Shown: positions 4,784 to 64,000, counted from the stretch's first letter. The stretch is DNA of 64,000 nt from an uncultured Solibacteraceae bacterium (GCA_964573795.1 CAZNMF010000049.1:1232-65231); one strand, 5' to 3'. Program-made: numbers and translations. The notes: generated from the letters alone by a model not told the origin.

Positions 4784-6621
4784 TCGCGGACATGGATCGC
4801 GTCGACGTCATCGTGATCGGCGCCGGTCACGCCGGATGCGAGGCGGCATGGGCCGCCGCGCGCATGGGATGCCGCGTGGCGATCTGCACGCTGTCGATGG
4901 ACACCATCGCGCTGATGCCCTGCAACCCTGCGGTCGGCGGCACGGCGAAGGGCCATCTCGTGCGTGAGATCGACGCGCTGGGTGGCCTGATGGGCCACGC
5001 GATCGACGCGACGGGCATCCAGTTCAAGCTGCTCAATCGGAGCCGCGGACCCGCGGTGTGGTCGCCGCGCGCGCAGGCCGACAAGCGCCGGTATGGCGCG
5101 TGGGTGCGCGAGGCGCTGTCACGCGAGCCGAATGTGCGCTGGCTCATCGGCCGCGCGGGTCGGATCGTCGTCGATGACGGCCGCGTGACGGGGCTCGAGC
5201 TCGAGGATGGCTCGCGTATCGCGTGCCGCGCGCTCGTCATCACGACGGGCACGTTTCTGAACGGCCTGGTGCACGTCGGCGACGAGCAGCGGCCGTCGGG
5301 CCGCGCCGGCGAGCCGCCGACGCGCGCGCTCGCGGAGTCGCTGCGATCGATTGGCGTCGAGATGGGCCGGCTGAAGACGGGTACGCCGCCGCGGCTCGAT
5401 CGGCGCAGCATCGATTTCTCGCGCTTTCCCGAAGAACGGGGCGACGATCCGATCGTTCCCTTCTCGTTCATGTCGCCGCCGATCGCGCGCGAGCAGATCC
5501 CGTGTCATCTCGTCTACACGACCGAGCGGCTGCACGATCTCGTGCGCGACAACATCGGCCGATCGCCGCTCTACAACGGGCAGATCTCCGGCATCGGTCC
5601 GCGCTACTGCCCGTCGCTCGAGGACAAGGTGATGCGCTTCCCCGAGAAGGAGCGCCATCAGATCTTTCTCGAGCCGGAGGGCGTGGACGTCGACGAGATC
5701 TACGTGAACGGCCTGTCGATGAGCCTGCCGCGGGACGTGCAGGAGTCCATCGTGCACGCGCTGCCCGGCCTCGAGTCCGCGCGCGTGCTGCGGCATGCGT
5801 ACGCGGTCGAGTACGACTTCGTCCAGCCGACGGAGCTGCATCGATCGCTCGAGACCAAGCGTCTGCCAGGCTTGTTCCTCGCCGGCCAGATCAACGGCAC
5901 GTCCGGGTACGAGGAGGCCGCGGCGCAAGGGTTGATGGCCGGCATCAATGCGGCGCACGCGGTGCGCGGGGACGCGCCCGTCGTGCTCGGACGCGACCAG
6001 GCGTACATCGGGATCCTCGTCGACGATCTCGTCACGCGCGGATGTCTCGAGCCGTATCGCATGTTCACGTCACGCGCGGAGCATCGTCTGCGCCTGCGGA
6101 TCGACAACGCGGACCTGCGCCTGACGCCGATCGGCCGCGAGATCGGGCTCGTCGACGAAGCGCGGTGGCGATCGTTCGACGCGCGACGCGAGCGGCTCGC
6201 GCGCAATCTCGATCGCGCGGAGCAAACGCGCGTGGCGATCGACGGAGACACGACGACGGCCGCGCAGGCGCTGTCGCGGCCGCCGGTGACGCTGGAAGAC
6301 CTGCGCGCGGCGGGATTCGCGATCGAGCACGACGCGCGGCGTGGCGATCTGGACGCGGCGACGCTGACCGCGGAGCTGAAATATCGTGGCTATCTCAAGC
6401 GCCATGACGCACAGCTTGCGCGCACGCAGGCGGACGAGGCGCGACGGATTCCCGCGACGTTCTCTTACTCGGCGATTCCTGGGCTCTCGCGCGAAGTCGT
6501 GGAGCGGCTCACCCACGTGCGCCCGGAAACAATCGGCCAGGCCGCGCGGGTGCCGGGCGTCACGCCCGCCGCCATCGCCATCGTCGCCGCGCGCGTGTCG
6601 CGTTGGACGCCTGAGAGCTGA
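4780..6621 (+). CDS. mnmG: tRNA uridine 5-carboxymethylaminomethyl modification enzyme MnmG (GidA)
   Basis: Inner start MIADMDRVDVIVIGAGHAGCEAA... (FAD-binding GxGxxG). The rest of ORF 4444..6621 is typical GidA. ATGA overlap with mnmE. Confidence 0.95.
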   Translation: MIADMDRVDVIVIGAGHAGCEAAWAAARMGCRVAICTLSMDTIALMPCNPAVGGTAKGHLVREIDALGGLMGHAIDATGIQFKLLNRSRGPAVWSPRAQADKRRYGAWVREALSREPNVRWLIGRAGRIVVDDGRVTGLELEDGSRIACRALVITTGTFLNGLVHVGDEQRPSGRAGEPPTRALAESLRSIGVEMGRLKTGTPPRLDRRSIDFSRFPEERGDDPIVPFSFMSPPIAREQIPCHLVYTTERLHDLVRDNIGRSPLYNGQISGIGPRYCPSLEDKVMRFPEKERHQIFLEPEGVDVDEIYVNGLSMSLPRDVQESIVHALPGLESARVLRHAYAVEYDFVQPTELHRSLETKRLPGLFLAGQINGTSGYEEAAAQGLMAGINAAHAVRGDAPVVLGRDQAYIGILVDDLVTRGCLEPYRMFTSRAEHRLRLRIDNADLRLTPIGREIGLVDEARWRSFDARRERLARNLDRAEQTRVAIDGDTTTAAQALSRPPVTLEDLRAAGFAIEHDARRGDLDAATLTAELKYRGYLKRHDAQLARTQADEARRIPATFSYSAIPGLSREVVERLTHVRPETIGQAARVPGVTPAAIAIVAARVSRWTPES

Positions 6622-6627
6622 TCGCGC

Positions 6628-7239
6628 GTGTCGCCCTTCCCCGCTTTGATCCGCGCGCGCGTCGATGCATCCGGGCTGTCAGTCGCGGACGATCTCGTCG
6701 CGAGGCTCGGTGCGTATCTCGACGTGCTGGCGCGCTGGAATCGGCGGATCAATCTCACGTCGTTCGATCTCGACGCGCCTACTGACGCGGCGATCGATCG
6801 TCTGATCGTCGAGCCGCTGCGCGCCGCGGCGTTCGTCCGTGAGTCCGATCGCGTCGCTCTCGACATCGGATCCGGCGGCGGGTCGCCTGCGATTCCGATC
6901 GCGGTCGCGTGCCCGTGGCTGCGCATGACGCTCGTCGAGATCCGCGCGCGAAAGGCGGCGTTTCTGCGCGAAGCCGTGCGCACGGTTGATCTCGCCGGCG
7001 CGCGCGTCGAAGCCGTGGCGTTCCACCGGCTGGCTGCGGACCATTCACTTGCCAAGCAAGTGGATGTCGTCACGATGCGCGCGGTGCGTGCGGATGGGGA
7101 GATCTGGAAGGCGATCGAAGTGTTGCTTGCGCCTGGCGGGCGCGTGCTGTGGTTCGGCGGCGATCGAGGGGCGATTGAAGGTACATCGTTAGCGCCGGTC
7201 GCCAGTAATGACGTTGTCCTCGTGCTCGCACGTCGCTGA
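6628..7239 (+). CDS. rsmG: 16S rRNA (guanine527-N7)-methyltransferase RsmG (GidB)
   Basis: 203 aa following mnmG. Contains ...WNRRINLTS... and the SAM motif DIGSGGGSPAIPIA. GTG start. Confidence 0.9.
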   Translation: MSPFPALIRARVDASGLSVADDLVARLGAYLDVLARWNRRINLTSFDLDAPTDAAIDRLIVEPLRAAAFVRESDRVALDIGSGGGSPAIPIAVACPWLRMTLVEIRARKAAFLREAVRTVDLAGARVEAVAFHRLAADHSLAKQVDVVTMRAVRADGEIWKAIEVLLAPGGRVLWFGGDRGAIEGTSLAPVASNDVVLVLARR

Positions 7240-7353
7240 AGTCGTCGCATGGTTGTAATTGGGCCAAAAGACCAAAACATGCAACCAGCGACCCCTATGA
7301 CATGGTGCCGGCCGGTCCAGACGGGACGCACGTTCCCTCGCGCAAAAGTGACG

Positions 7354-7369
7354 TGTTCCACGTGGAACA
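7354..7369. other. parS-like centromere site, perfect 16-bp palindrome TGTTCCACGTGGAACA
   Basis: Matches the established parS consensus TGTTNCACGTGAAACA at 15 of its 15 specified positions... one position (G for A in the right half) makes it perfectly symmetric. It lies about 800 bp upstream of parAB, in the origin-proximal region. Confidence 0.75.
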
Positions 7370-7404
7370 TGTCGGTCGTCTTCTCTTGTCGACGACGGTC
7401 GCTC

Positions 7405-7632
7405 CTACTTGCGTCGTTCCTTTGATGGATGGCCGCGCTCGGCCATGAAGCGATCGAAGTCGCCCCAATTCAGCTTCCTTGGCTTCTGTTTGCTTCGGCC
7501 GTACCAGACGATCGCGCCGCGCGATACTTTCAACGTATCGAACTTCACGCCGTCGCGGTACACATCAAACGACACATCCGTTGATCGCAGTTCCTGCCAC
7601 GGCACATTGAACTTTGCCCAATGCTCAGCCAT
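7405..7632 (-). CDS. Hypothetical 75-aa protein (family not recognised)
   Basis: ORF MAEHWAKFNVPWQELRSTDVSF...ERRK. It is the only minus-strand ORF in the first 24 kb that does not overlap a recognised gene. It sits in locally lower-GC DNA and has a purine-rich stretch before the ATG. Confidence 0.5.
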   Translation of the reverse strand: MAEHWAKFNVPWQELRSTDVSFDVYRDGVKFDTLKVSRGAIVWYGRSKQKPRKLNWGDFDRFMAERGHPSKERRK

Positions 7633-8166
7633 TTAGTCCCTGCCTTGAAGTGAGAAAGCGTGTCACGCGTCGCCTGGGCTCCACGTCAGGCTTACGCTCA
7701 GGTCGCACGCGAATCCTACTTCGCCTTGAAGGGAAGAACAGCCCGTTGTTTCCAGACATCACGACCACGAGCTGCCTGCGGGTCAGGTCATCGCGGCGCA
7801 GTCATCTCTCCCAGCGTCTCCAATTTTCGCGGCGTGCAACGACATGCGTGGCCGGCTCGCCGCCTGGTCTGTGCCAACTCACAACTTTCCCTCGAGCGTG
7901 ACGCCCAGACGCGACAAACATCACGCGCTCGGCGAGCCGAATGGCCACGGATTCGCCTCGCATGCTCTTCCCTGTCGCTGCCCTACCAATCTCGTCAGCC
8001 AGACGCCGCGCCATCAAGGCTTGGACTTCGGCGCCACACTTTCACGCGCTCGACCATCGCCCGTGCGTCCCGTTCGAAAACCTGACTTGACGGAAGGCGC
8101 GCTCAACGTCGACAATTTCGCCTGTCGCGTCAGAGCCTAGCCAGAAGATATTTGGTCATATAACAT

Positions 8167-9015
8167 ATGAGCGAGCGCGCCCGCATCATTGCCGTCGCCA
8201 ACCAAAAAGGCGGCGTCGCCAAGACGACCACGGCCATCAATCTCGGTGCGTCGCTGGCCATGGCCAATCAGCGTGTGCTGCTCGTCGACCTCGACCCGCA
8301 GGGCAACCTGACGAGCGGCGTCGGACGAAAGGGAAGTCCGGGGCCCGGCGGCACCGCCTATGAGGCGCTCACCGGCGACGACGATCCGCGTGGGTTCGTC
8401 ATTCCGACGGGGGTCGACCACCTGTCGCTCATCCCGGCGGACCGCGACCTCACGGGCGCCGAAATCGAGCTCGTCGGTCTCGATGCCCGCGAGCGCCGGC
8501 TGGAGCGCGTGCTCGCCTCGCTCGCGCCGGACTTCGACTACATCTTCGTGGACTCGCCGCCGTCGCTCGGCCTGCTCACCCTCAACGCGCTCGTCGCCGC
8601 CGACGCGGTGCTGATTCCCCTCAACTGCGAGTACTTCGCGCTCGAGGGCATCGCCGAGCTGATGGCGACGATCGACCGCGTGCGCGCCGCGCTCAACCCG
8701 CGCCTCGCCGTCGAAGGCGTGCTGCTGACGATGTACGACGACCGGACGAACCTGGGTCAGCAGGTGAGCGCCAACATCCGTGAGTTCTTCGGCGACCAGG
8801 TCTACCGCACCGTGATCCCGCGCAACATCCGGCTCGGTGAGGCGCCGAGCCACGGCGTGCCGGTCATCCTCTACGACGCGCGCTCGCGCGGCGCAGAGGC
8901 TTATGTGGCATTCGCACATGAGTTCATGGCGCGCACACGCCGGCCCGCGCCCGACGCCGATGCCGCTGGCACGCCGCCGCCGGACCAGGCGCCGCCGCAC
9001 TCGGAGCAGGAATAG
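8167..9015 (+). CDS. parA: Chromosome partitioning ATPase ParA/Soj
   Basis: Deviant Walker A motif AVANQKGGVAKTTTAINL, plus LLVDLDPQGN. Has a Pro/Ala-rich C-terminal tail. Confidence 0.95.
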   Translation: MSERARIIAVANQKGGVAKTTTAINLGASLAMANQRVLLVDLDPQGNLTSGVGRKGSPGPGGTAYEALTGDDDPRGFVIPTGVDHLSLIPADRDLTGAEIELVGLDARERRLERVLASLAPDFDYIFVDSPPSLGLLTLNALVAADAVLIPLNCEYFALEGIAELMATIDRVRAALNPRLAVEGVLLTMYDDRTNLGQQVSANIREFFGDQVYRTVIPRNIRLGEAPSHGVPVILYDARSRGAEAYVAFAHEFMARTRRPAPDADAAGTPPPDQAPPHSEQE

Positions 9016-10805: not shown

Positions 10806-12329
<1,524 letters not shown>

Positions 12330-23413: not shown

Positions 23414-24453
23414 AGATCGGCGCCGTCTCGATCGAACATCCCGTCGCGCTGGCGCCGATGGCCGGCATGACGGACACCGCGTTCCGCCGCCTCGTCAAGC
23501 GCAAGGGCGGATGCGGTCTCGTCGTGACCGAAATGGTCAGCTCCGAGGGCCTCGTGCGCGGGATCGATCGCACGCTCGAGTACGCGGAGTACACCGAGGA
23601 AGAGCGCCCAGTCTCGATCCAGATCTTCGGCGGCGATCCCGCCGTGATGGCCGACGCCGCGCAGGTCGTCGAAGGCATGGGCGCGGACATCGTCGACATC
23701 AACATGGGATGTCCGGTCCCGAAGATCGCCAAGCACAACGCCGGATGCAGTCTGATGCGCGAGCCAGAGCACGCGGCGAGTGTCGTGCGCGCGATGGCCA
23801 AGGCGGTCAAGATTCCCGTGACCGTCAAGATGCGTGCGGGCTGGAACGAGCACGAGATCAACGCGCCCACGCTGGCGCGCATGGCGCAGGACGCCGGCGC
23901 CGCCGCGCTCGCCGTCCACGGACGCACGGCCGCCCAGTCGTACACGGGCGAGTCGGACTGGACGCTGATCGAACGCGTCGCGGCCGCGGTGTCGATTCCG
24001 GTGTTCGGATCGGGCGATTGCGTCCTGCCCGACGACGTCGTTTCGCGCCTCGCGAGCGGACGCGTGGCAGGGGTGCTCGTCGGCCGCGGTGCGCTCCGCA
24101 ATCCCTGGATCTTCAGCCAGGCCGCAAGCGCGATCGACGGCGGCCTGCCCTCGGCGGTTTCGCTCGCGGAGCGAGGCCGGTTCCTGCTCGACTATGTCGA
24201 CCTGCTGCTCGCCGAGCGCGTTGCCGAGAGCGACGGGTTCAGGCACTCGGCTCCAGGGCATGCACCGGCGCCGCCGGCGGCGGCCAGGGGCCGCGAACGC
24301 TGGGTGATCAACAAGCTCCGTGCGTTGGGATCCTGGTATACGAAGGGGCTCGACGGCGGAAGCCAGCTTCGGGTCGCCATCAACAGCGCCGAGTCAATCG
24401 AGGCGCTGCGCTCGATCATCGGCAGCTTCTTCATGAACGAAGCCGCTGCATAG
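23410..24453 (+). CDS. tRNA-dihydrouridine synthase (Dus family)
   Basis: GTG start overlaps the previous stop. Contains LAPMAGMTDTAFRRL, INMGCPVPKI, and HGRTAAQSYTG. Confidence 0.9.
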   Translation: MKIGAVSIEHPVALAPMAGMTDTAFRRLVKRKGGCGLVVTEMVSSEGLVRGIDRTLEYAEYTEEERPVSIQIFGGDPAVMADAAQVVEGMGADIVDINMGCPVPKIAKHNAGCSLMREPEHAASVVRAMAKAVKIPVTVKMRAGWNEHEINAPTLARMAQDAGAAALAVHGRTAAQSYTGESDWTLIERVAAAVSIPVFGSGDCVLPDDVVSRLASGRVAGVLVGRGALRNPWIFSQAASAIDGGLPSAVSLAERGRFLLDYVDLLLAERVAESDGFRHSAPGHAPAPPAAARGRERWVINKLRALGSWYTKGLDGGSQLRVAINSAESIEALRSIIGSFFMNEAAA

Positions 24454-24454
24454 G

Positions 24455-24811
24455 TCAAAAGGCCAATTTGTTGGCCGCGTCAGCGGCATCAACGTCGACC
24501 CACTCGACTTCAGAGACGATGGCGCGCTCGCAGTACTCCCAAAACAATCGTCCCAGCACTTCGTGCTTGGGGTCGTTCAGGTAGCCGACAAGTCCTTCGG
24601 CGCCATCAAATTCGAGCACGGCTGCGTATTTGTAGGTCGTGTCACCAAGCGACCTGCCATATCCAGGATCGATCTCGACTCTGCGTCCAACCGAGAGCCG
24701 CCTGACCGTCTCGATAGACCTGCACGTCTCAATCACGGATTGGGCAAATGCCAATTTCTGAGACTGATCCAGTCCGGCCTTTGGCTCGAAGAGCACGATG
24801 TGCGCAATCAT
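24455..24811 (-). CDS. Dabb (stress-responsive alpha/beta-barrel) domain protein
   Basis: 118 aa with MIAHIVLFEPKAG... and ...YKYAAVLEFDGAEGLVGYLNDPKH..., the typical Dabb pattern. Last gene of the EBP operon. Confidence 0.7.
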   Translation of the reverse strand: MIAHIVLFEPKAGLDQSQKLAFAQSVIETCRSIETVRRLSVGRRVEIDPGYGRSLGDTTYKYAAVLEFDGAEGLVGYLNDPKHEVLGRLFWEYCERAIVSEVEWVDVDAADAANKLAF

Positions 24812-25209
24812 CGGGATCGCTTGGGGCCGCGCGACTGCGGCGGGCGACGGGGAGGCCGGCGCTGGCCGTCACCAGCGTCACTGGTCTTCGCGGAGATCAG
24901 GCGGCGTTTGAAGCGCGCGCGCTTCTCGTCGCGCGTGAGTTTGTACTTGGCTCGTGGATCGACATGAGCGCCGCCTGGCCGCCATTCGCGATCCCGCGCC
25001 GCGCTCGCCCGTCGTCGTGCCGCGAACGCGTCGTCGGCTGCCTGCGGCGAGTCCCAGAATCGCCCGCGATCGAACCACTTGAGTGCCACGTTCGGCTGCG
25101 TGCGCTGGAGCTGACGGAGCGTCGGCAGCAGATCCTCGGCCCGTCTCGCGCGAAAAGCCGTCGGCTGCGCGCCCGCGACGATCACCCAGCAGCAGAATCG
25201 CTTCGTCAT
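24808..25209 (-). CDS. Hypothetical 133-aa protein with strongly basic C-terminal tail (family not recognised)
   Basis: ORF MTKRFCCWVIVAGAQPTAFRARRAEDLLPTLRQLQRTQPNVALKWFDRGRFWDSPQAA..., then an Arg/Lys/Pro-rich tail. The ATG lies 3 nt after the EBP stop, and there is an ATGA overlap with the Dabb gene. Confidence 0.55.
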   Translation of the reverse strand: MTKRFCCWVIVAGAQPTAFRARRAEDLLPTLRQLQRTQPNVALKWFDRGRFWDSPQAADDAFAARRRASAARDREWRPGGAHVDPRAKYKLTRDEKRARFKRRLISAKTSDAGDGQRRPPRRPPQSRGPKRSR

Positions 25210-25212
25210 CGC

Positions 25213-26598
<1,386 letters not shown>

Positions 26599-33731: not shown

Positions 33732-33864
33732 GCCCGGGTCTGAAGACCGGGCTATATCGGGCTACGGGCTACAGGCTACGGGCTACAGGCGACGGGCGAC
33801 GGACATCAAGCCTCACCCGCGTGTCTGTCTGCGTACAGATGTAGGCCGGGTCTTCAGACCCGGC
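33732..33864. repeat. Pair of mutually inverted GC-rich hairpins about 113 bp apart (REPIN/BIME-like doublet)
   Basis: Left hairpin gcccgggtcTGAAgaccgggc (33732-33752, one bulge). Right hairpin gccgggtcTTCAgacccggc (33845-33864, perfect 8 bp), preceded by GTAG. The two are reverse complements of each other. Confidence 0.45.
33759..33802. repeat. 7-bp tandem array (GGGCTAC)n, 6 units
   Basis: GGGCTAC GGGCTAC AGGCTAC GGGCTAC AGGCGAC GGGCGAC, read directly. Located inside the hairpin doublet. Confidence 0.85.
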
Positions 33865-42215: not shown

Positions 42216-42701
42216 ATGATCGGTCCCGGACTGCTCGTGTTGCGGCTCGCGCTGGCGACCGTGCTGGTGGCGCATGGCAGCCACGAGTTGTTCGGGCTGT
42301 TCGGCGGGCCCGGCGCAGGGCCCGGCGGGCTGGCGCAGACCGCCGCGCACTTTGCGAGCATCGGCCTCTCGCCCGGGATCTTCTTTGCGGTGTTGATCGG
42401 CCTGGTCCGGCTCGCAGGCGGCGCGTTGATCGGTGTCGGATACTTCGCGCGCTGGGCCGCGCTCGCGGTCGCCATCCTCGAAGGCCTCGAGACCTGGAAG
42501 GACTTCGCGCGCTGGGGCCTCTTCCTCAACTGGACGCTCGATCCCACCCGCGGCCACGGCATGGAATACGCCATCGTCACGATCGCGGCGCTCGTGTGTG
42601 TGACGCTGGCCGGATCGGGCGAGTGGTCGATCGACGGCGTGCGCGCGCGGTCGGCGGCCTCGCGCGCGGCCGGGCGAGCCAGGCTCAGGGATAGAGTCTG
42701 A
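42216..42701 (+). CDS. DoxX-family membrane protein
   Basis: MIGPGLLVLRLALATVLVAHGSHELFGLFGG..., four hydrophobic segments, 161 aa. Confidence 0.75.
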   Translation: MIGPGLLVLRLALATVLVAHGSHELFGLFGGPGAGPGGLAQTAAHFASIGLSPGIFFAVLIGLVRLAGGALIGVGYFARWAALAVAILEGLETWKDFARWGLFLNWTLDPTRGHGMEYAIVTIAALVCVTLAGSGEWSIDGVRARSAASRAAGRARLRDRV

Positions 42702-42719
42702 TGACGCGTCCAGTGCGTG

Positions 42720-42783
42720 TATCTCGCTATCTCTCTATCTCCCTATCGCACTATCTGATCATCGAGCTATCGGGTTATCTGCC
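42720..42783. repeat. 8-bp tandem array, 8 units, consensus (C)TATCTCN
   Basis: TATC (or CATC) begins at 42720, 42728, 42736, 42744, 42752, 42760, 42768 and 42776, an exact 8-bp period read directly. Confidence 0.85.
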
Positions 42784-42786
42784 TCT

Positions 42787-42814
42787 TTCGAACTTCGTAC
42801 TTCGAACTTCGAAC
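42787..42814. repeat. 7-bp tandem array (TTCGAAC)n, 4 units
   Basis: TTCGAAC TTCGTAC TTCGAAC TTCGAAC, ending 9 nt before the SDR start codon. Confidence 0.85.
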
Positions 42815-42822
42815 GTCCGTCG

Positions 42823-43563
42823 ATGGATCTGACCTCTCGAGTCGTGTTGCTGACCGGCGGCCGCCGGATGGGCGTGACGATCGCGACGGCGTGCGCGCTG
42901 CGGGGCGCGGACGTCGCGGTGGTGTATCGCAAGTCGAAAGACGATGCGGAGGCGGTGCGCGACGCGGTGACGGCGCAGGGACGCCGGGCCGAGCTGGTGC
43001 AGGCCGATGTCTCCGATCCGGCGTCGGCGACGGCCATGATCGCCGCCGTCGATCGCGCGTTCGGCCGGCTCGACGTGCTCGTCAACATGGCGTCGATCTA
43101 CGAGTCCGTCCCGCTCGATCAGCTGACGGTCGATCATTGGCGCCGGCAGCTGTCCGTCGACTTGCACGGCACGTTTCATTCGTCGCTCGCGGCGATTCCG
43201 CTGCTGCGCCGCAGCGGCGGCGGCCGCATCATCAACTTCAGCGACTGGCTGGTCGCCAGCGAGCGGCCGCGCTACGCGGGATACGTGCCGTACTACGTCG
43301 CGAAGGCCGGCGTGAAGGCGCTGACGGAAGCGCTCGCCCTCGAGCTCGCCTCCGATCGGATCCTCGTCAATGCGATCGCGCCGGGCCCGATTCTCGCGCC
43401 GCCGGGCACGACCGACGACGAGAGCGCGGCGGTCGCGCGCGCCACGCCGCTCGGCCAGTGGGGCGGGCCGGGCGAGATCGCGAAAGCCATCCTCGCGCTG
43501 ATCGACTCCGACTTCATCACGGGCGAGACGATCCGCGTCGACGGCGGACGCCACATCGCGTGA
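42823..43563 (+). CDS. Short-chain dehydrogenase/reductase (SDR) family oxidoreductase
   Basis: Contains VVLLTGGRRMGVTIA, NMASI, the active-site YxxxK (YYVAKAGVKAL) and PGPI. Confidence 0.9.
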   Translation: MDLTSRVVLLTGGRRMGVTIATACALRGADVAVVYRKSKDDAEAVRDAVTAQGRRAELVQADVSDPASATAMIAAVDRAFGRLDVLVNMASIYESVPLDQLTVDHWRRQLSVDLHGTFHSSLAAIPLLRRSGGGRIINFSDWLVASERPRYAGYVPYYVAKAGVKALTEALALELASDRILVNAIAPGPILAPPGTTDDESAAVARATPLGQWGGPGEIAKAILALIDSDFITGETIRVDGGRHIA

Positions 43564-43573
43564 GAAGACCCCT

Positions 43574-43629
43574 GACAACTCAGACCTGAGAACCCAGAAC
43601 TGAGAACCGAGAACCGAGAACCCAGAATC
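43574..43629. repeat. 7-bp tandem array (GAGAACC)n, 8 units
   Basis: GACAACT CAGACCT GAGAACC CAGAACT GAGAACC GAGAACC GAGAACC CAGAATC. Fills the SDR-nitroreductase spacer. Confidence 0.85.
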
Positions 43630-43634
43630 GCATC

Positions 43635-44261
43635 ATGAGTGACGACGAGCATCCGAAGGTCGCGGCGGCGGATCACGCGATCCTCGACGTCATTCGGCAT
43701 CGCTGGAGCCCGCGCGCGTTCGACGCGGCGGCCGACGTCAGCGATGCGGAGCTGCGGCAGCTCTTCGAAGCCGCGCGCTGGGCGCCTTCGTCGGCCAACG
43801 AGCAGCCGTGGCGGTTCGTCGTGGCGACGTCGCGGCGGAATCCGCGCGCGTTCGCGGCGCTGCTCGACACGCTCGAGCCGCGAAACCAGGCGTGGGCGAG
43901 GCACGCGCCGGCGCTGGTGCTCGTCGCCATCCGGCTCACGTTCGAGCGAAACGGCGCGCCGAACGCGATGGCGTGGTGGGACGCCGGGCAGGCCGTGGGG
44001 TTTCTGTCGCTTCAGGCGACGGCCATGGGCCTCGCGACGCGGCAGATGGCCGGCTTCGACGTCGAGCGCATCCGAACGGCCTGCAACGTGCCGTCGCTCT
44101 TCGAGCCCGCGATCGTGATGGCCATCGGCTATGCGGGAGATCCCGACCGTCTCGAGGTCGAGAAACATCGCGCCGCCGAGCTCCAGCCGCGCCAGCGCCG
44201 GCCGATCGACGAGTTCGTCTTCGACGGCACGTGGGGGATGGGGTTTGGAACGTCGAAGTAA
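43635..44261 (+). CDS. Nitroreductase-family protein
   Basis: Contains ...RHRWSPRAFD...EAARWAPSSANEQPWRFVV... 208 aa. Confidence 0.85.
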   Translation: MSDDEHPKVAAADHAILDVIRHRWSPRAFDAAADVSDAELRQLFEAARWAPSSANEQPWRFVVATSRRNPRAFAALLDTLEPRNQAWARHAPALVLVAIRLTFERNGAPNAMAWWDAGQAVGFLSLQATAMGLATRQMAGFDVERIRTACNVPSLFEPAIVMAIGYAGDPDRLEVEKHRAAELQPRQRRPIDEFVFDGTWGMGFGTSK

Positions 44262-44287
44262 GAATCCGATCGGGAAACGCGACGTCC

Positions 44288-45133
44288 TTACCCCTCCGCC
44301 AGCGCCAGCACGCGCTCCAGCGTCTTCCTCGCGCTCTTGACCGGCAGATTCGACACGTAGAAGTGACGCACGCCGCACGCGCGCAGCGTGCGGATCGTCT
44401 GCGCGCATACCTCATCCGGCGTCGCACCCGCGGAGAACTCGCGCGTGAGCTCGTCGACGGGCACAGGCAGGAAATGGCGCAGCGTCTCGAGCGTCTTCGA
44501 GCTCGCGCTGCGGTAGTAGAACACGCCGAACACGCCGGGCAGCGCGATGCGCTGCCGCTCGTACTCCGTCTGGAAGCGCTCGATCGCGGCGCGATGATGA
44601 TGCGAGACGATCTGCGTCAGGAAGTACTCGCCGTTGAACGTGCCGTCGGTGAGATAGCCGATCTGCCGCGCGGTGTCGGCGTGCGGGTTGGCCCAGCCGC
44701 CGAGCGACAGGCCCGGCACGTGCGCCGCGATGTGGCGGCGCAGCTCCCACGCGTGACTCACGCAACGCGGCGGCCCGACGGTGCGATCGCCGCCGAGCAC
44801 CACGAGCGATCGAAACCCTTCCTGCCAGGCGCGCTCGGCGTAGCTCAGACAGAAGTCCAGCGAATGCTTCGTCGTCAGAAACGGCACGACGTGATCGCGC
44901 GGCACGTCGGTGCCGAGGTTGATCACGAGATGCCGCAAGTTGTGCTCTTCACGCGCGCCGACGGCGCTGTCGGTGAGGAACACGAACGTGCCCGCGCGCA
45001 CGAGGCCGCGGACCGCGTGGTACGTGTCGATCCACGCGTCGCGGCCCGCCGCCGCATCGAGCTCGGCCCGCGGCGGCCGCAATTCGACGGACACGACGGG
45101 ATCCTTCAACAGGGCCTGCACGAGCGCGGACAT
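44288..45133 (-). CDS. Methylenetetrahydrofolate reductase (MTHFR/MetF) family protein
   Basis: Inner start MSALVQALLKDPVVSVELRPPR... (SxExxPP-type N-terminus). About 281 aa and TIM-barrel-like. Assignment to the family is by eye only. Confidence 0.6.
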   Translation of the reverse strand: MSALVQALLKDPVVSVELRPPRAELDAAAGRDAWIDTYHAVRGLVRAGTFVFLTDSAVGAREEHNLRHLVINLGTDVPRDHVVPFLTTKHSLDFCLSYAERAWQEGFRSLVVLGGDRTVGPPRCVSHAWELRRHIAAHVPGLSLGGWANPHADTARQIGYLTDGTFNGEYFLTQIVSHHHRAAIERFQTEYERQRIALPGVFGVFYYRSASSKTLETLRHFLPVPVDELTREFSAGATPDEVCAQTIRTLRACGVRHFYVSNLPVKSARKTLERVLALAEG

Positions 45134-45221
45134 CCCACGAAGTATAACGAGCGCGCGCCGAGCACCGCGCGGGTCCGCCGCCCACGCGCCGCTGAGATGA
45201 GGGCAGGTAGCTCGATGGCCA

Positions 45222-45295
45222 GATGATCCGCAGATAGTCCGATAGCCAGATGCGAGATAGTGCGTCAGCGCGATAGTGAGATAGCGCGATACAGC
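45222..45295. repeat. 8-bp-period array of GATAG-containing units (reverse complement of the 42720 array)
   Basis: GATAG, GATGC or GATAC begins at 45233, 45241, 45249, 45256, 45272, 45280 and 45288. This is an 8-bp period with one 1-nt slip. Units such as GAGATAGT and GCGATAGT are the reverse complement of CTATCTCN. Confidence 0.7.
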
Positions 45296-45327
45296 GGCTC
45301 TCGTCCTCCTTGCCATAACATGGACCG

Positions 45328-46299
45328 TTGATGGCCACCGCTCTCGCCGCGCTGATGGCGCTGCCCGCCGTCGAGCTGGCGCCGCATCGCACGCCGGTCG
45401 ATCGGCTGGCGCGTCTCGAGCGCGCGCTCGGGCCCGAGTGCCCGCGCCTGCTGATCAAGCGCGACGATCTGCTGTCGTTCGCGCTCGGCGGCAACAAGGT
45501 GCGCAAGCTGCAGCTGCTCGCGGCCGAGGCGCAGCGCGCCGGCGCCGACACGCTCATCACCTGCGGTGCGGTGCAGTCGAATCACGCACGCGTGACGGCC
45601 GCGACGGGCGCGGTGCTCGGCTGGCGCGTCGTCCTCGTGCTCAGCGGCGACCCGCCGGCGCAGCCGACGGGCAATCTCTCGCGCGATCGGGTCTTCGGCG
45701 CCGACGTACGCATCGTGGGGGATCGCAGGGCACGCGCCGCGATGATGGAAGACGTCGCGGAGGAGATGCGCCGCGCCGGCCGACGTCCGTTCGTGATTCC
45801 GCTCGGCGGATCGACGCCGATCGGCGCCGCCGGCATGGCGCGCGCGATCGCGGAGCTCGGGGCCGACCGCATCAGACCCGACGTCATCGTTCACGCGTCG
45901 TCGTCCGCGGGCACGCAGGCCGGGCTGACGATGGGGTGCGCGTTGTTCGGTCTGAAGACGACGGTGCTCGGCATCAGCGTCGACGAGCCGGCAGACGTCC
46001 TGCGCGCGAACGTCGAGTCGCTCGTCGGGCGCATGGCGGAGGCGCTCGGCGCGCGCGCGGAGACGGTCCTGCGATCGCATCCGACCGACGTCGACGACAG
46101 TCAGATCGGCGATGGCTATGGCATCGCGACGCCCGCGTCGGAGGAGGCGTTGACGCTCGTGGCGCGAACCGAGGGCATCATCCTCGATCGGGTGTACGAG
46201 TCGAAGGCGATGGCCGGTCTGATGGCGCGCATCCGCGACGGACGTTTCACCAGGGATCAGACCGTGTTGTTCTGGCACACAGGGGGGTTGAGTGAGTAA
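45328..46299 (+). CDS. PLP-dependent ACC deaminase / D-cysteine desulfhydrase family protein
   Basis: Contains ...LLIKRDDLLSFALGGNKVRKLQLL... (PLP lysine motif GGNKxRKL) and ...GAVQSNHARV... Confidence 0.85.
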   Translation: MMATALAALMALPAVELAPHRTPVDRLARLERALGPECPRLLIKRDDLLSFALGGNKVRKLQLLAAEAQRAGADTLITCGAVQSNHARVTAATGAVLGWRVVLVLSGDPPAQPTGNLSRDRVFGADVRIVGDRRARAAMMEDVAEEMRRAGRRPFVIPLGGSTPIGAAGMARAIAELGADRIRPDVIVHASSSAGTQAGLTMGCALFGLKTTVLGISVDEPADVLRANVESLVGRMAEALGARAETVLRSHPTDVDDSQIGDGYGIATPASEEALTLVARTEGIILDRVYESKAMAGLMARIRDGRFTRDQTVLFWHTGGLSE

Positions 46300-57357: not shown

Positions 57358-57382
57358 GACTATCTGATAGTCCTGGCAGGAC
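57358..57382. promoter_or_regulatory. Two abutting perfect palindromes, GACTATC-T-GATAGTC and GTCCTG-G-CAGGAC
   Basis: Read directly, 70-95 nt upstream of the DUF349 start codon. Their 1-nt centres make RNA hairpins unlikely, so they look like DNA operator sites. Confidence 0.35.
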
Positions 57383-60137: not shown

Positions 60138-60163
60138 GCGCCGATTCTATCGGCTTGATCACG

Positions 60164-60181
60164 CTACATCTATGAATGTAG
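60164..60181. promoter_or_regulatory. AT-rich inverted repeat CTACAT-ctatga-ATGTAG (candidate ArsR-type operator)
   Basis: 6-bp perfect arms, ending 5 nt before the ATG of the ArsR-family gene. It sits inside a 48-bp divergent spacer that is unusually AT-rich for this genome. Confidence 0.35.
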
Positions 60182-60185
60182 ATTT

Positions 60186-61180
60186 ATGGATGTGACTGGC
60201 GTCTCGGCGTTGCTCCGGCTGCTCGGCGACGACACGCGGCTGCGGCTGCTTCGCCTGCTGTCGCTGGAGGCGCTGAACGTATCGGAGCTCACCGCCGTGC
60301 TCGGCGTGGCGCAGTCGGGCGTCTCGCGCCATCTCGGGCTGCTGCGCGACGCGGGCCTGGTCGCCGAAGAGCGCACGGGCGGGTACACGTGGTACCGCCT
60401 CGCGCCGGCCTTCGGCATGCCCGACGAGACGCGCGCGCCGCTCTGGACCTGGCTCCGCGACGAGTTCACCAAGGTCACGCCCGCGACGACGGCCGACGAT
60501 GCGCGGCTGCAGGAGGTGCGGCGGCTGCGGAAGGAAAGCTTTGCGGACCACGGCGCAGGCCAGGAGCGGGGACAGCTCGTTCCCGGCCGGAGCTGGGCCG
60601 CGTGGTCGCGCGCGCTCGCGCTGCTGCTGCCCGCCGTCGACGTCGCCGATCTCGGCTGCGGCGAAGGCTATCTGACCGTCGAGATGGCGCACTGGGCGCG
60701 TCGCGTGGTCGCCGTCGATCGCTCCACGTCCGCCCTTGCGCACGCCCGCGCGCTCGCGGCGCGCCGCAAGGCGCGCAACATCACGTGGAAGCGCGGCGAG
60801 CTGGAGCGGCTGCCCGTCGACGACGCCGCGATCGACGTGGCGCTGCTGTCGCAGGCGCTGCACCACGCCGAGCGTCCCGAGGCCGCGCTGGCCGAGGCGC
60901 ACCGCATCCTGCGTCCCGGCGGCCGCGTGCTCGTGCTCGATCTTCGGGAGCACGACGAGTCGTGGGTACGCGCGAAGCTGGGCGATCGATGGCTCGGTTT
61001 CTCCGAGGCGCGGCTGCACGAGCTGCTCGCCGGCGCGGGCTTCGAACGCGTCGTCGTCCGCGTGGGCGCGCGGACGCCTGGCGATGCGTTCACGGTGTTG
61101 ATCGCCGCCGGCACGAAGGCGCCAGCGGTGCCGGCGGATCGACGCGCCGGCGCCGGAACGAAGAGGAAGGAACGACACGA

Positions 61181-61184
<4 letters not shown>
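60186..61184 (+). CDS. ArsR/SmtB-family winged-HTH fused to a class I SAM-dependent methyltransferase domain
   Basis: N-terminus is ...[48 protein letters not shown]... The C-terminus has SAM motif [12 protein letters not shown] and ...[11 protein letters not shown]... Confidence 0.85.

Positions 61185-64000
<2,816 letters not shown>

What the first reader, a model, noticed from the sequence alone, without database searches (positions are those of the whole stretch)
42720..45295. Inverted 8-bp-period GATAG arrays bracket the SDR / nitroreductase / MTHFR-like block, both upstream of inward-facing genes
An array of 8 x (C)TATCTCN (42720-42783) lies 40-103 bp upstream of the SDR gene. Its reverse complement, units such as GAGATAGT and GCGATAGT (45222-45295), lies 89-162 bp upstream of the oppositely oriented MTHFR-like gene. 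Relative to each gene, the array therefore has the same orientation and a similar distance. A related perfect palindrome, GACTATC-T-GATAGTC, occurs at 57358-57372. This looks like a shared cis-element, possibly a multimeric binding platform for a GATAG-recognising protein, co-regulating three redox or one-carbon genes. It could also represent the ends of an old insertion.
Basis: inference. Interest (0 to 1): 0.6.

Follow-up and report, generated by a model that had tools for sequence, protein, structure and literature searches.

The report
Two conserved inverted octamer-repeat arrays
Two inverted copies of one 64-base element, each built of eight 8-base CTATC repeats, sit upstream of a reductase gene pair and of an MTHFR-fold gene in a soil acidobacterium. 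They are real, conserved and probably a protein-binding platform, but they are one family among very many short-repeat arrays that fill the gene spacers of this bacterial order.

Summary
Array A (42719-42783) and the reverse complement of array B (45230-45293) are homologous copies of one 64-bp element. Both carry the same ordered series of eight degenerate octamers (consensus TATCKSNC) and are 70-89% identical.

Both copies occur in all five close lineages recovered. They are absent from relatives at or below about 80% protein identity, although the gene order is kept across about 80 Vicinamibacterales genomes. The block is therefore not an insertion.

Orthologous arrays are 84-94% identical. 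Four-fold degenerate sites are 69-73% identical and adjacent spacers 59-67%. The TATC core varies least. This points to purifying selection.

The arrays also gain and lose whole units in register, and array B is truncated or missing in some strains.

The MTHFR-fold gene has a conserved TATACT box 7 nt before its ATG, which implies a leaderless mRNA. Array B therefore lies about 70-160 bp upstream of the transcription start and acts on DNA.

My best reading (confidence about 0.4) is a cooperative protein-binding platform with 8-bp phasing. No binding protein was identified.

The arrays belong to an order-wide population of intergenic 7- and 8-bp arrays with more than 100 unit types, and about half of these have an inverted partner within 200 bp.

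The parts
42216..42701 (+). DoxX-family gene, upstream neighbour of array A
   Evidence: Pfam DoxX, E 3e-13. Called as a 161-aa DoxX gene in relatives.
42719..42783 (+). Array A: eight octamers in exact register (TATCKSNC). One copy of the 64-bp element.
   Evidence: Sequence; TRF period 8; nhmmer E 4e-19. Present in five lineages, with 9 units in L163. Invariant in 9 same-species contigs.
42787..42814 (+). Separate heptamer array, TTCGAAC x4, between array A and the SDR start codon
   Evidence: TRF period 7, 4.0 copies. Unit number and sequence differ in the L165 lineage.
42823..43563 (+). SDR gene. Its best NCBIfam matches are pteridine reductase and TmpR-type, both below cut-off.
   Evidence: Pfam adh_short_C2, E 3e-46; NCBIfam PRK09135, 177 bits against a cut-off of 288.
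43572..43627 (+). Heptamer array, GAGAACC-type x6-7, in the SDR-nitroreductase junction. Specific to the window's lineage.
   Evidence: TRF. Absent in L165, L163, L001 and L182, where the junction is 7-10 nt. Two extra units in strain contig L181.
43635..44261 (+). Nitroreductase-family gene
   Evidence: Pfam Nitroreductase, E 5e-25.
44288..45133 (-). Divergent MTHFR-fold gene (281 aa)
   Evidence: Pfam MTHFR only E 0.034, and no PDB hit by sequence. The AlphaFold model has pLDDT 85.9. The top 50 Foldseek PDB hits are all MTHFR/MetF, best 5ume_C with E 6e-11 and TM 0.71.
45141..45146 (-). TATACT box 7 nt upstream of the MTHFR-like ATG: inferred -10 element of a leaderless mRNA
   Evidence: An exact TATACT lies near the start in 82 of 134 loci, against a background of 0.9% of 100-nt windows. 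In 75 loci it is followed by ATG or GTG within 4-10 nt.
45203..45229 (-). Partial duplication of the gene-proximal tail of array B (element positions 40-65)
   Evidence: Second nhmmer hit next to the core. Present in the window and L165 lineages, absent in L163.
45230..45293 (-). Array B core: the second, inverted copy of the 64-bp element
   Evidence: nhmmer E 5.5e-19; alignment with array A; 78% identical to A in the window. Unit indels and replacement among strains.
45316..45321 (+). TAACAT, a possible -10 box of the divergent PALP gene
   Evidence: Conserved in the clade and found in 21 of 117 loci. A weak inference.
45331..46299 (+). PALP gene (D-cysteine desulfhydrase / ACC deaminase family), divergent from the MTHFR-like gene
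   Evidence: Pfam PALP, E 9e-38; NCBIfam.
57358..57372 (.). Perfect palindrome GACTATC-T-GATAGTC, 71 nt upstream of a DUF349 gene start (57287, minus strand). Its relation to the arrays is unproven.
   Evidence: Sequence. CTATCNGATAG occurs once against 0 expected. Pfam DUF349.

Best explanation
Arrays A and B are two paralogous, inverted copies of one degenerate 64-bp tandem-array element made of eight octamers (consensus TATCKSNC, that is CTATC every 8 bp).

**Origin (inferred).** The element arose in a small clade of Vicinamibacterales from the short-unit arrays that constantly form in the intergenic DNA of this order. One copy was then duplicated into a spacer 2.4 kb away.

**Maintenance (shown).** Both copies have since been kept under purifying selection. 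One lies upstream of the SDR-nitroreductase pair. The other lies about 70-160 bp upstream of the transcription start of the leaderless MTHFR-fold gene.

**Mechanism (inferred).** The element acts on DNA as a multi-site platform. A protein that reads one CTATC core per 8 bp binds cooperatively along the array, with successive sites spiralling round the helix at about four sites per three turns. This is the geometry used by ribbon-helix-helix repressors on MET boxes and on omega heptads. Binding would modulate the adjacent promoters of pterin/folate-type redox genes in parallel.

Because each unit is a separate site, the function tolerates gain and loss of units.
For: **Shown**
- A and the reverse complement of B align over 64 bp with the same order of unit variants, at 70-89% identity.
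- A profile of the element finds only these two places per genome in 1.65 Mb.
- Both copies are present in five lineages.
- Orthologous copies are 84-94% identical. Four-fold degenerate sites of the five flanking genes are 69-73% identical, and the spacers touching the arrays 59-67%.
- Variable columns number 6 of 32 in the TATC core and 15 of 32 in positions 5-8 (p = 0.03). Across 55 units, positions 1-4 and 8 are nearly invariant.
- Orthologues are more alike than paralogues, so the conservation is not due to gene conversion between A and B.
- Unit indels keep the register: +1 unit in L163, -2 units in L183, and a x6 amplification of one unit in L168.
- The spacer from the TATACT box to array B stays 47-49 nt in four lineages, while the PALP side takes up a 22-nt longer spacer with a hairpin insertion.
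- TATACT followed by ATG is conserved in 75-82 of 134 loci. This places array B upstream of the transcription start, so it is not in that mRNA.
- The flanked genes share a theme: a pteridine-reductase-like SDR, a nitroreductase and an MTHFR fold.

**From the literature**
- MetJ operators are tandem 8-bp MET boxes (PMC4239095).
- The omega repressor binds 7-10 contiguous 7-bp repeats that overlap three promoters, one dimer per repeat (PMC9499535).
- TTTTGAT heptad repeats in the ctxAB promoter recruit regulators (bioRxiv 10.1101/2021.05.14.444153).
Against: - No binding protein was identified, and no regulator gene is adjacent.
- Only two sites are known, because whole genomes of the clade could not be scanned.
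- The geometry differs. Array A ends 39 nt from the SDR start codon, where no promoter could be placed. Array B ends about 70 nt from the MTHFR-like start.
- Array B is dispensable or replaceable in nature. Its core is replaced by hairpin elements in L181. A contig whose MTHFR-like protein is 98% identical has only 45 bp between the two genes.
- The same genes do without the arrays in all more distant relatives.
- The order holds at least 116 unit types in similar arrays, and identical units often recur in neighbouring spacers whatever the gene. Local spread of a repeat family can therefore mimic a regulon.
- Mosaic recombination between lineages (L168, L181) weakens simple divergence comparisons.
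Confidence: 0.4

Rival explanations
1. Non-adaptive repeat DNA. The arrays are products of replication slippage and local duplication, like the other 7-8-bp arrays of this order. They are tolerated in promoter-poor spacers and have no gene-specific role. Their apparent conservation would come from recent exchange between lineages or from a selfish property of the repeat family.
For: - Period-7 and period-8 arrays number 119 and 58 in 1.62 Mb, more than 95% non-coding, with 116 unit types.
- The PALP-MTHFR-like spacer is ancestrally about 65 bp. It has been expanded independently by arrays of unrelated units in 28 of 118 loci.
- The same unit recurs in several neighbouring spacers in other genomes.
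- Array B shows copy-number and presence/absence polymorphism within a species.
- Mosaic lineages show frequent recombination.
Against: - Neutral DNA of this age should be about 30-40% diverged, as the touching spacers and four-fold sites are. The arrays are only 6-16% diverged, with the ordered unit variants retained.
- Recombination tracts would have to end at both borders of both arrays in every lineage.
- Array A is invariant in 9 strain contigs.
- The substitutions avoid the TATC core.
Confidence: 0.25
2. RNA-level element. The sense-strand CUAUC repeats lie in an untranslated leader or intercistronic RNA. They bind a single-strand-binding factor (S1, cold-shock or KH-type protein, or Rho) to tune translation or termination.
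For: - Many arrays of this order, and the TAACTGA heptamers of Beggiatoaceae, abut start codons (PMC4679880).
- Array A lies between two co-directional genes.
- Array A is 75% pyrimidine on the sense strand and forms no stable structure (z -0.6).
Against: - The MTHFR-like gene has a conserved -10 box 7 nt before its ATG, so array B is not in its mRNA.
- There is no upstream gene on that strand whose transcript could carry the reverse complement of B.
- A and B show the same pattern of constraint, which argues for one shared level of action.
- No Rfam family matches.
Confidence: 0.12
3. Sequence-independent structural spacer. The arrays serve only to lengthen or insulate the DNA between closely packed promoters, or to provide a supercoiling-sensitive segment. 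Any 7-9-bp array would do.
For: - In 28 of 118 loci the same divergent spacer is filled by arrays of unrelated units that reach to within 12-45 nt of both start codons.
- The ancestral spacer of 40-65 bp forces the two promoters to overlap.
Against: - A purely structural role does not explain conservation of the specific TATC core and of the order of unit variants in both paralogues.
- It does not explain why the second copy sits in a non-divergent spacer (DoxX-SDR).
Confidence: 0.12
4. Terminal inverted repeats of an old insertion, or substrates for inversion of the 2.4-kb block.
For: Two 64-bp arms about 78% identical, in inverted orientation, bracket three genes.
Against: - The gene order and orientation are the same in about 80 genomes without the arrays and in all contigs of the clade.
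- There is no target-site duplication at the outer ends.
- None of the genes scanned is a transposase or recombinase.
- The block has the GC3 of its surroundings.
Confidence: 0.04

Closest known systems
Intergenic heptamer simple-sequence repeats of Xanthomonas and Nostoc (GGGNATC), cyanobacterial STRR repeats, and TAACTGA repeats of Beggiatoaceae
   Same: - Tandem units of 7 (here 7-8) bp, strongly over-represented and almost all non-coding.
- Unit number varies between close relatives.
- Some occur as inverted pairs.
- Function unknown.

Sources: PMC4692102, PMC4679880.
   Different: - Here there are more than 100 unit types rather than one dominant motif, and they are not G-quadruplex sequences.
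- About half of the arrays have an inverted partner array within 200 bp.
- The A/B pair is degenerate, ordered, paralogous and conserved across species, which has not been reported for those repeats.
Tandem operator arrays of ribbon-helix-helix proteins: MetJ MET boxes (8 bp, two or more in tandem), omega/ParB of pSM19035 (7-10 contiguous 7-bp repeats at three promoters), and ParG tetramer boxes (own knowledge)
   Same: - Contiguous sub-sites with a 7-8-bp period and a tolerated variable number of units.
- The same array type is placed at several promoters.
- metF belongs to the MetJ regulon (PMC3228920, PMC4239095, PMC9499535). That its operator holds about five MET boxes is my own knowledge.
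   Different: - No cognate protein is known here, and the unit sequence is unrelated.
- MET boxes are palindromic and overlap the core promoter, whereas array B lies at about -70 to -160.
- MetJ itself is confined to Gammaproteobacteria.
TTTTGAT heptad repeats of the Vibrio cholerae ctxAB promoter
   Same: A tandem short-unit array upstream of a promoter whose copy number varies between strains and which recruits regulators (bioRxiv 10.1101/2021.05.14.444153).
   Different: That array is AT-rich, has a 7-bp period, sits at a single locus and has known binding proteins.
REP/BIME-type intergenic palindromic elements
   Same: Genome-specific families of short intergenic repeats. They are often hairpin-forming and are gained and lost between relatives. 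GC-rich hairpin elements of this kind sit beside or replace array B in L163, L168 and L181.
   Different: - A and B are direct-repeat arrays with no partner within 200 bp.
- As single strands they do not fold.
- No RAYT-type transposase was seen.

Membership tests
Intergenic long-unit simple-sequence repeat (heptamer class) | Head-to-tail copies of a 5-11-bp unit, more than chance gives | tested here: met
   Eight units in 8-bp register. Observed 4 and 8 pattern matches against 0.00 and 0.20 expected. TRF period 8.
Intergenic long-unit simple-sequence repeat (heptamer class) | Non-coding location | tested here: met
   Both arrays lie between called genes. The coding reading is rejected: GC3 is 0.53 against about 0.85-0.9 in genes, the frame is not kept in L165, and variation follows an 8-nt rather than a 3-nt period.
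Intergenic long-unit simple-sequence repeat (heptamer class) | Unit-number variation between close relatives | tested here: met
   +1 unit in array A of L163. In array B: x6 amplification in L168, -2 units in L183, truncation in L181.
Ribbon-helix-helix tandem operator (MetJ / omega type) | Contiguous sub-sites with a 7-8-bp period and a conserved core in each unit | tested here: met
   TATC plus C8 nearly invariant in 55 units; exact register in array A.
Ribbon-helix-helix tandem operator (MetJ / omega type) | A cognate ribbon-helix-helix (or other) protein that binds the array | not testable with these tools
   No regulator lies next to the block. The rest of the genome is not available.
Ribbon-helix-helix tandem operator (MetJ / omega type) | Array overlaps the core promoter it controls | tested here: not met
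   Array B lies about 70-160 bp upstream of the inferred start of the leaderless MTHFR-like mRNA. No SDR promoter could be located.
Ribbon-helix-helix tandem operator (MetJ / omega type) | The same array type at several promoters of one regulon | tested here: inconclusive
   Two sites within 64 kb, both facing redox/folate-type genes. A genome-wide scan was not possible.
Transposon or insertion with terminal inverted repeats | Inverted repeats at both ends | tested here: met
   64-bp arms, 78% identical.
Transposon or insertion with terminal inverted repeats | Target-site duplication, a transposase, and presence or absence of the block as a unit | tested here: not met
   The outer flanks differ. 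The three genes inside are metabolic. The block is present in about 80 genomes that lack the arrays.
Invertible DNA segment (inverton) | Both orientations occur; an invertase lies nearby | tested here: not met
   The orientation is the same in all contigs. None of the genes scanned is a recombinase.
Structured cis-regulatory RNA (riboswitch or leader) | Match to a known family, or a fold more stable than shuffled sequence | tested here: not met
   No Rfam match in the window. Folding z-scores are -0.63, +1.67 and +1.79.
Methylenetetrahydrofolate reductase (for the gene facing array B) | MTHFR TIM-barrel fold | tested here: met
   Model pLDDT 85.9. The top 50 PDB matches are all MTHFR, with TM about 0.7 and 15-20% identity. 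Sequence-level membership is marginal (Pfam E 0.034). Activity was not tested.

The most novel reading that the evidence does not exclude
Vicinamibacterales carry a previously undescribed, order-wide population of self-propagating 7-8-bp tandem-array elements, about half of which have an inverted partner array within 200 bp. These repeatedly colonise gene spacers. In one clade a member of this population was duplicated and domesticated as an operator for a still unknown cooperative DNA-binding protein. That protein reads CTATC every 8 bp and controls a small pterin/folate redox regulon. This would be an independent re-invention of the MetJ/metF logic.
Probability: 0.15. Interest if true: 0.65.

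Novelty: new member of a known kind. Interest (0 to 1): 0.42.

Why it matters
Short-unit (heptamer-class) repeat arrays are over-represented in the spacers of several bacterial phyla, and their function is still unknown. This is a case where two paralogous copies of such an array can be followed through five lineages. They evolve like constrained sequence while still gaining and losing units. That gives a concrete, testable candidate for a repeat array recruited as a regulatory platform.

The work also shows that an abundant soil order, Vicinamibacterales, is rich in such arrays. That affects assembly, gene-start calling and promoter prediction in these genomes. One example is a false 342-aa open reading frame that runs through array B.

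The practical value is limited, because the clade is known only from metagenomes.

Tried and rejected
**Readings tested and rejected**
- Coding or leader-peptide reading. An ATG overlapping the DoxX stop opens a 43-codon frame through array A, and a 342-aa frame extends the MTHFR-like gene through array B. I rejected this because GC3 is about 0.53, the frame is not kept in L165, and variation follows an 8-nt rather than a 3-nt period.
- Long-range pairing of A with B. Within-genome A/B identity (0.70-0.86) is no higher than between genomes (0.73-0.89), so there is neither co-variation nor concerted evolution.
- Insertion or inversion: see the rival explanations.
- Known RNA family: none found.
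- The idea that lineages with an array upstream of the MTHFR-like gene carry the same unit upstream of the SDR gene. This is seen only in the window's clade. Elsewhere, repeated units recur at spacers of other genes.

**Leads that went nowhere**
- Link to the SahR-like regulator at 60186-61184. Its own upstream region shares only one TATCGG unit with the arrays. The published SahR motif could not be retrieved.
- Sequence and profile searches of the MTHFR-like protein against PDB sequences found nothing. Only the fold comparison worked.
- The metagenome scan with the MTHFR-like protein returned no relative above 78% identity. The close relatives came from exact-protein look-ups instead.
- The contig of protein P0121, which seems to lack array B, has no DNA on file.
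Full report
**Source and gene map**

The window is a 68% G+C stretch of a Vicinamibacterales (Acidobacteriota) genome. The closest genome hit for the MTHFR-like protein is a Vicinamibacterales MAG at 94% identity.

| Coordinates | Strand | Feature |
|---|---|---|
| 42216-42701 | + | DoxX gene |
| 42719-42783 | + | Array A |
| 42787-42814 | + | TTCGAAC x4 heptamer array |
| 42823-43563 | + | SDR gene |
| 43572-43627 | + | GAGAACC-type heptamer array |
| 43635-44261 | + | Nitroreductase gene |
| 44288-45133 | - | 281-aa MTHFR-like gene |
| 45203-45293 | - | Array B |
| 45331-46299 | + | PALP gene |

The 281-aa gene has only a marginal Pfam MTHFR match (E 0.034) and no PDB match by sequence. Its AlphaFold model (pLDDT 85.9) matches MTHFR/MetF structures in all of the top 50 PDB hits, with TM about 0.7. 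The SDR scores best against pteridine-reductase and TmpR-type models, below their cut-offs.

**The observation**

Array A is eight octamers in exact register. Array B is the reverse complement of the same motif and is less regular. The phased TATC patterns occur only in these two arrays, 4 and 8 times against 0.00 and 0.20 expected by shuffling. Tandem Repeats Finder and the inverted-repeat search both find them. Orientation and distances are as stated.

**What the arrays are**

Aligning A with the reverse complement of B shows more than a shared motif. The two carry the same ordered series of unit variants:
- TATCTCNC, two to three times
- TATCGCRC
- TATCTGAT
- CATCNNGC
- TATCGGGY
- TATCTGCC

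They are 70-89% identical over 64 bp, so they are paralogous copies of one element.

A profile of the element finds exactly these two places per genome in 1.65 Mb of window plus fetched loci, plus a partial tail duplication next to B.

**Distribution among relatives**

Exact-protein look-ups recovered five lineages that carry both arrays where the contig reaches them:
- the window's species (L164, L172-L181)
- L001 / L165 / L167 / L161 / L162
- L163
- L168
- L182-L184

Relatives at about 80% protein identity or less lack both arrays. These are L002, L169, L170 and the remaining 150 or so loci.

The gene order M49 peptidase - beta-CASP - PALP / MTHFR-like - nitroreductase - (aminotransferase) - SDR - DoxX is kept across about 80 genomes. 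The block is therefore ancestral, and the arrays are later arrivals in two of its spacers. This rules out the 'old insertion' reading. So do the lack of a target-site duplication, the lack of any transposase or recombinase among the genes scanned, and the constant orientation in every contig.

**Constraint**

Between the three main lineages, identities are as follows:

| Sequence class | Identity |
|---|---|
| Orthologous arrays | 84-94% |
| Four-fold degenerate sites, five flanking genes | 69-73% |
| Spacers touching the arrays | 59-67% |

Variable columns are 6 of 32 in the TATC core against 15 of 32 in positions 5-8 (p = 0.03). In 55 in-phase units, positions 1-4 and 8 are nearly invariant, giving the consensus TATCKSNC.

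Orthologues are more alike than paralogues, and within-genome A/B identity is not raised. So there is no gene conversion between A and B and no pairing constraint. As single strands the arrays do not fold better than shuffled sequence, and no Rfam family matches. The arrays therefore evolve like sequence under purifying selection on a phased short core.

One caveat applies. Lineages L168 and L181 are mosaics, so recombination is frequent and different segments may have different histories.

**Turnover**

The arrays still behave as simple-sequence repeats:
- Array A has nine units in L163.
- Array B carries a perfect six-fold amplification of CGATAGCC in L168.
- Array B lacks exactly two units (16 bp) in L183, whose MTHFR-like protein is identical to that of L182.
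- In L181, whose MTHFR-like protein is identical to the window's, the 64-bp core of B is replaced by two GC-rich hairpin elements.
- A contig whose MTHFR-like protein is 98% identical has only 45 bp between the two genes. Array B seems to be absent there, but its DNA was not retrievable.
- Array A is invariant in nine contigs of the window's species.

**Position relative to promoters**

An exact TATACT lies near the start of the MTHFR-like gene in 82 of 134 loci. The background is 0.9% of 100-nt windows. In 75 loci it is followed by ATG or GTG within 4-10 nt.

This is the signature of a -10 box of a leaderless mRNA. Leaderless genes are predicted at about 13% in Acidobacteria (PMC3160421).

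In the window the box is at 45141-45146, so array B lies about 70-160 bp upstream of the transcription start and is not part of that mRNA. The spacer between the box and the array is 47-49 nt in four lineages, while the PALP side varies. No promoter could be placed for the SDR gene. Array A ends 39 nt before its ATG.

**The wider setting**

Counts in 1.62 Mb of Vicinamibacterales sequence:

| Unit length (bp) | TRF arrays, 3.5 or more copies | Perfect repeats, 3 or more copies |
|---|---|---|
| 6 | 3 | 5 |
| 7 | 119 | 43 |
| 8 | 58 | 9 |
| 9 | 18 | 4 |
| 10 | 6 | 1 |

- More than 95% of the period-7 and period-8 arrays are non-coding.
- Shuffled sequence gives no perfect repeats at unit lengths 6-12.
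- The 177 arrays of period 7-8 fall into 116 unit types. TATC-type units are confined to the window's clade, apart from one array in L007.
- 94 of the 177 have an inverted partner array within 200 bp, against 18 in a reversed-unit control. Examples inspected in five loci form long hairpin-shaped elements, and the same unit often recurs in several neighbouring spacers.
- The PALP / MTHFR-like spacer is ancestrally about 65 bp. It has been expanded independently by arrays of unrelated units in 28 of 118 loci.

Over-representation of heptamer repeats in bacterial spacers, their variability between close relatives, and occasional inverted pairs are already described for Xanthomonas, Nostoc and Beggiatoaceae. 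Their function there is unknown (PMC4692102, PMC4679880). I found no description for Vicinamibacteria or Acidobacteria in the held library.

**Interpretation**

*Shown:*
- Two paralogous, inverted, clade-specific copies of a degenerate octamer array.
- Conservation above the neutral level, focused on a phased CTATC core.
- Tolerance to in-register unit changes.
- A DNA-level position for copy B.

*Inferred:* the arrays are a platform for cooperative binding of a protein that reads one core per 8 bp. At that spacing successive sites spiral round the helix at roughly four sites per three turns. This matches MetJ on tandem 8-bp MET boxes (PMC4239095) and the omega repressor on 7-10 contiguous heptads at three promoters (PMC9499535). 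That metF itself carries a run of MET boxes in E. coli is my own knowledge.

I put this at about 0.4. No binding protein is known, the geometry differs at the two sites, array B is dispensable in some strains, and the abundance of other unit families makes local spread of a repeat family a serious alternative.

| Rival reading | Confidence |
|---|---|
| Non-adaptive repeat DNA | 0.25 |
| RNA-level element | 0.12 |
| Sequence-independent spacer | 0.12 |
| Insertion or inversion ends | 0.04 |

**Verdict**

The finding is real and more specific than described. Its 'shared cis-element' reading is supported as to homology and constraint, but not yet as to function. Its 'old insertion' reading is rejected. 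It is a new, well-documented member of the known class of intergenic short-unit tandem arrays, in a phylum where they had not been described. It also has an unusual feature: paralogous copies that have been conserved.

Noticed in passing
loci L001-L184 (for example L039:9540-9660, 10840-10965, 11715-11830; L048:10885-11005; L059:13355-13525; L031:11380-11525): Vicinamibacterales spacers are full of period-7 and period-8 tandem arrays, about 11 per 100 kb with 116 unit types. Of these, 53% have an inverted partner array within 200 bp. The pairs inspected in these loci form 100-130-bp hairpin-shaped elements whose arms are tandem repeats. Copies with the same unit sit in neighbouring spacers, which suggests spread as elements.
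   Followed up: partly
window 43572-43627; L181:4500-4584: The GAGAACC-type heptamer array fills the SDR-nitroreductase junction only in the window's lineage; relatives have a 7-10-nt junction. One strain contig has two more units, so this is a copy-number polymorphism inside an apparent operon.
   Followed up: partly
window 33734-33863: A CGGGCTA x6 heptamer array (33758-33802) lies between two inverted copies of an 18-bp hairpin, CCGGGTCT(GA/TC)AGACC(C)GG, at 33734-33751 and 33846-33863. The array unit continues the 3' arm of the first hairpin. It differs by one base from the octamer CGGGCTAT that is amplified in array B of L168.
   Followed up: partly
window 45141-45146 and upstream of the MTHFR-like gene in 82 of 134 loci: A TATACT box 6-8 nt before the start codon is conserved across the order, which implies a leaderless mRNA. 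The divergent PALP gene has TAACAT in a similar place in this clade.
   Followed up: yes
L163:3945-3990; L168:440-470 (minus strand); L181:2767-3000: GC-rich hairpin elements (for example GCCCGGCGGGCTAAAGCCCGCCGG) are inserted between array B and the PALP promoter in some lineages. In L181 they replace most of array B.
   Followed up: partly
window 60140-64000: A gene for an ArsR-type HTH domain fused to a SAM-methyltransferase domain (60186-61184, the SahR-like architecture) lies directly upstream of a B12-dependent methionine synthase gene (about 61.2 kb to the window end). Its 46-bp upstream spacer is only 41% G+C and holds the inverted repeat CTACAT-N6-ATGTAG.
   Followed up: partly
window 57358-57372: The perfect 7-1-7 palindrome GACTATC-T-GATAGTC lies 71 nt upstream of a 983-aa DUF349 gene (start 57287, minus strand). 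It contains two CTATC cores in inverted orientation. No relative covering this region was available, so conservation is unknown.
   Followed up: partly
window 44288-45316 (minus strand): A 342-aa open reading frame extends the MTHFR-like gene through array B in frame. It is an artefact of the repeat, because the frame is not kept in L165, and it could mislead gene callers.
   Followed up: yes
contig of P0121 (JGI sample 3300056388; no DNA on file): In a relative whose MTHFR-like protein is 98% identical, the PALP and MTHFR-like genes are only 45 bp apart, which implies an allele without array B.
   Followed up: no
window 6600-8180 and 24400-25230: Two stretches show lower G+C (62-67%) than their surroundings and have no long high-GC3 gene in a crude GC3-based call. 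They were not examined further.
   Followed up: no
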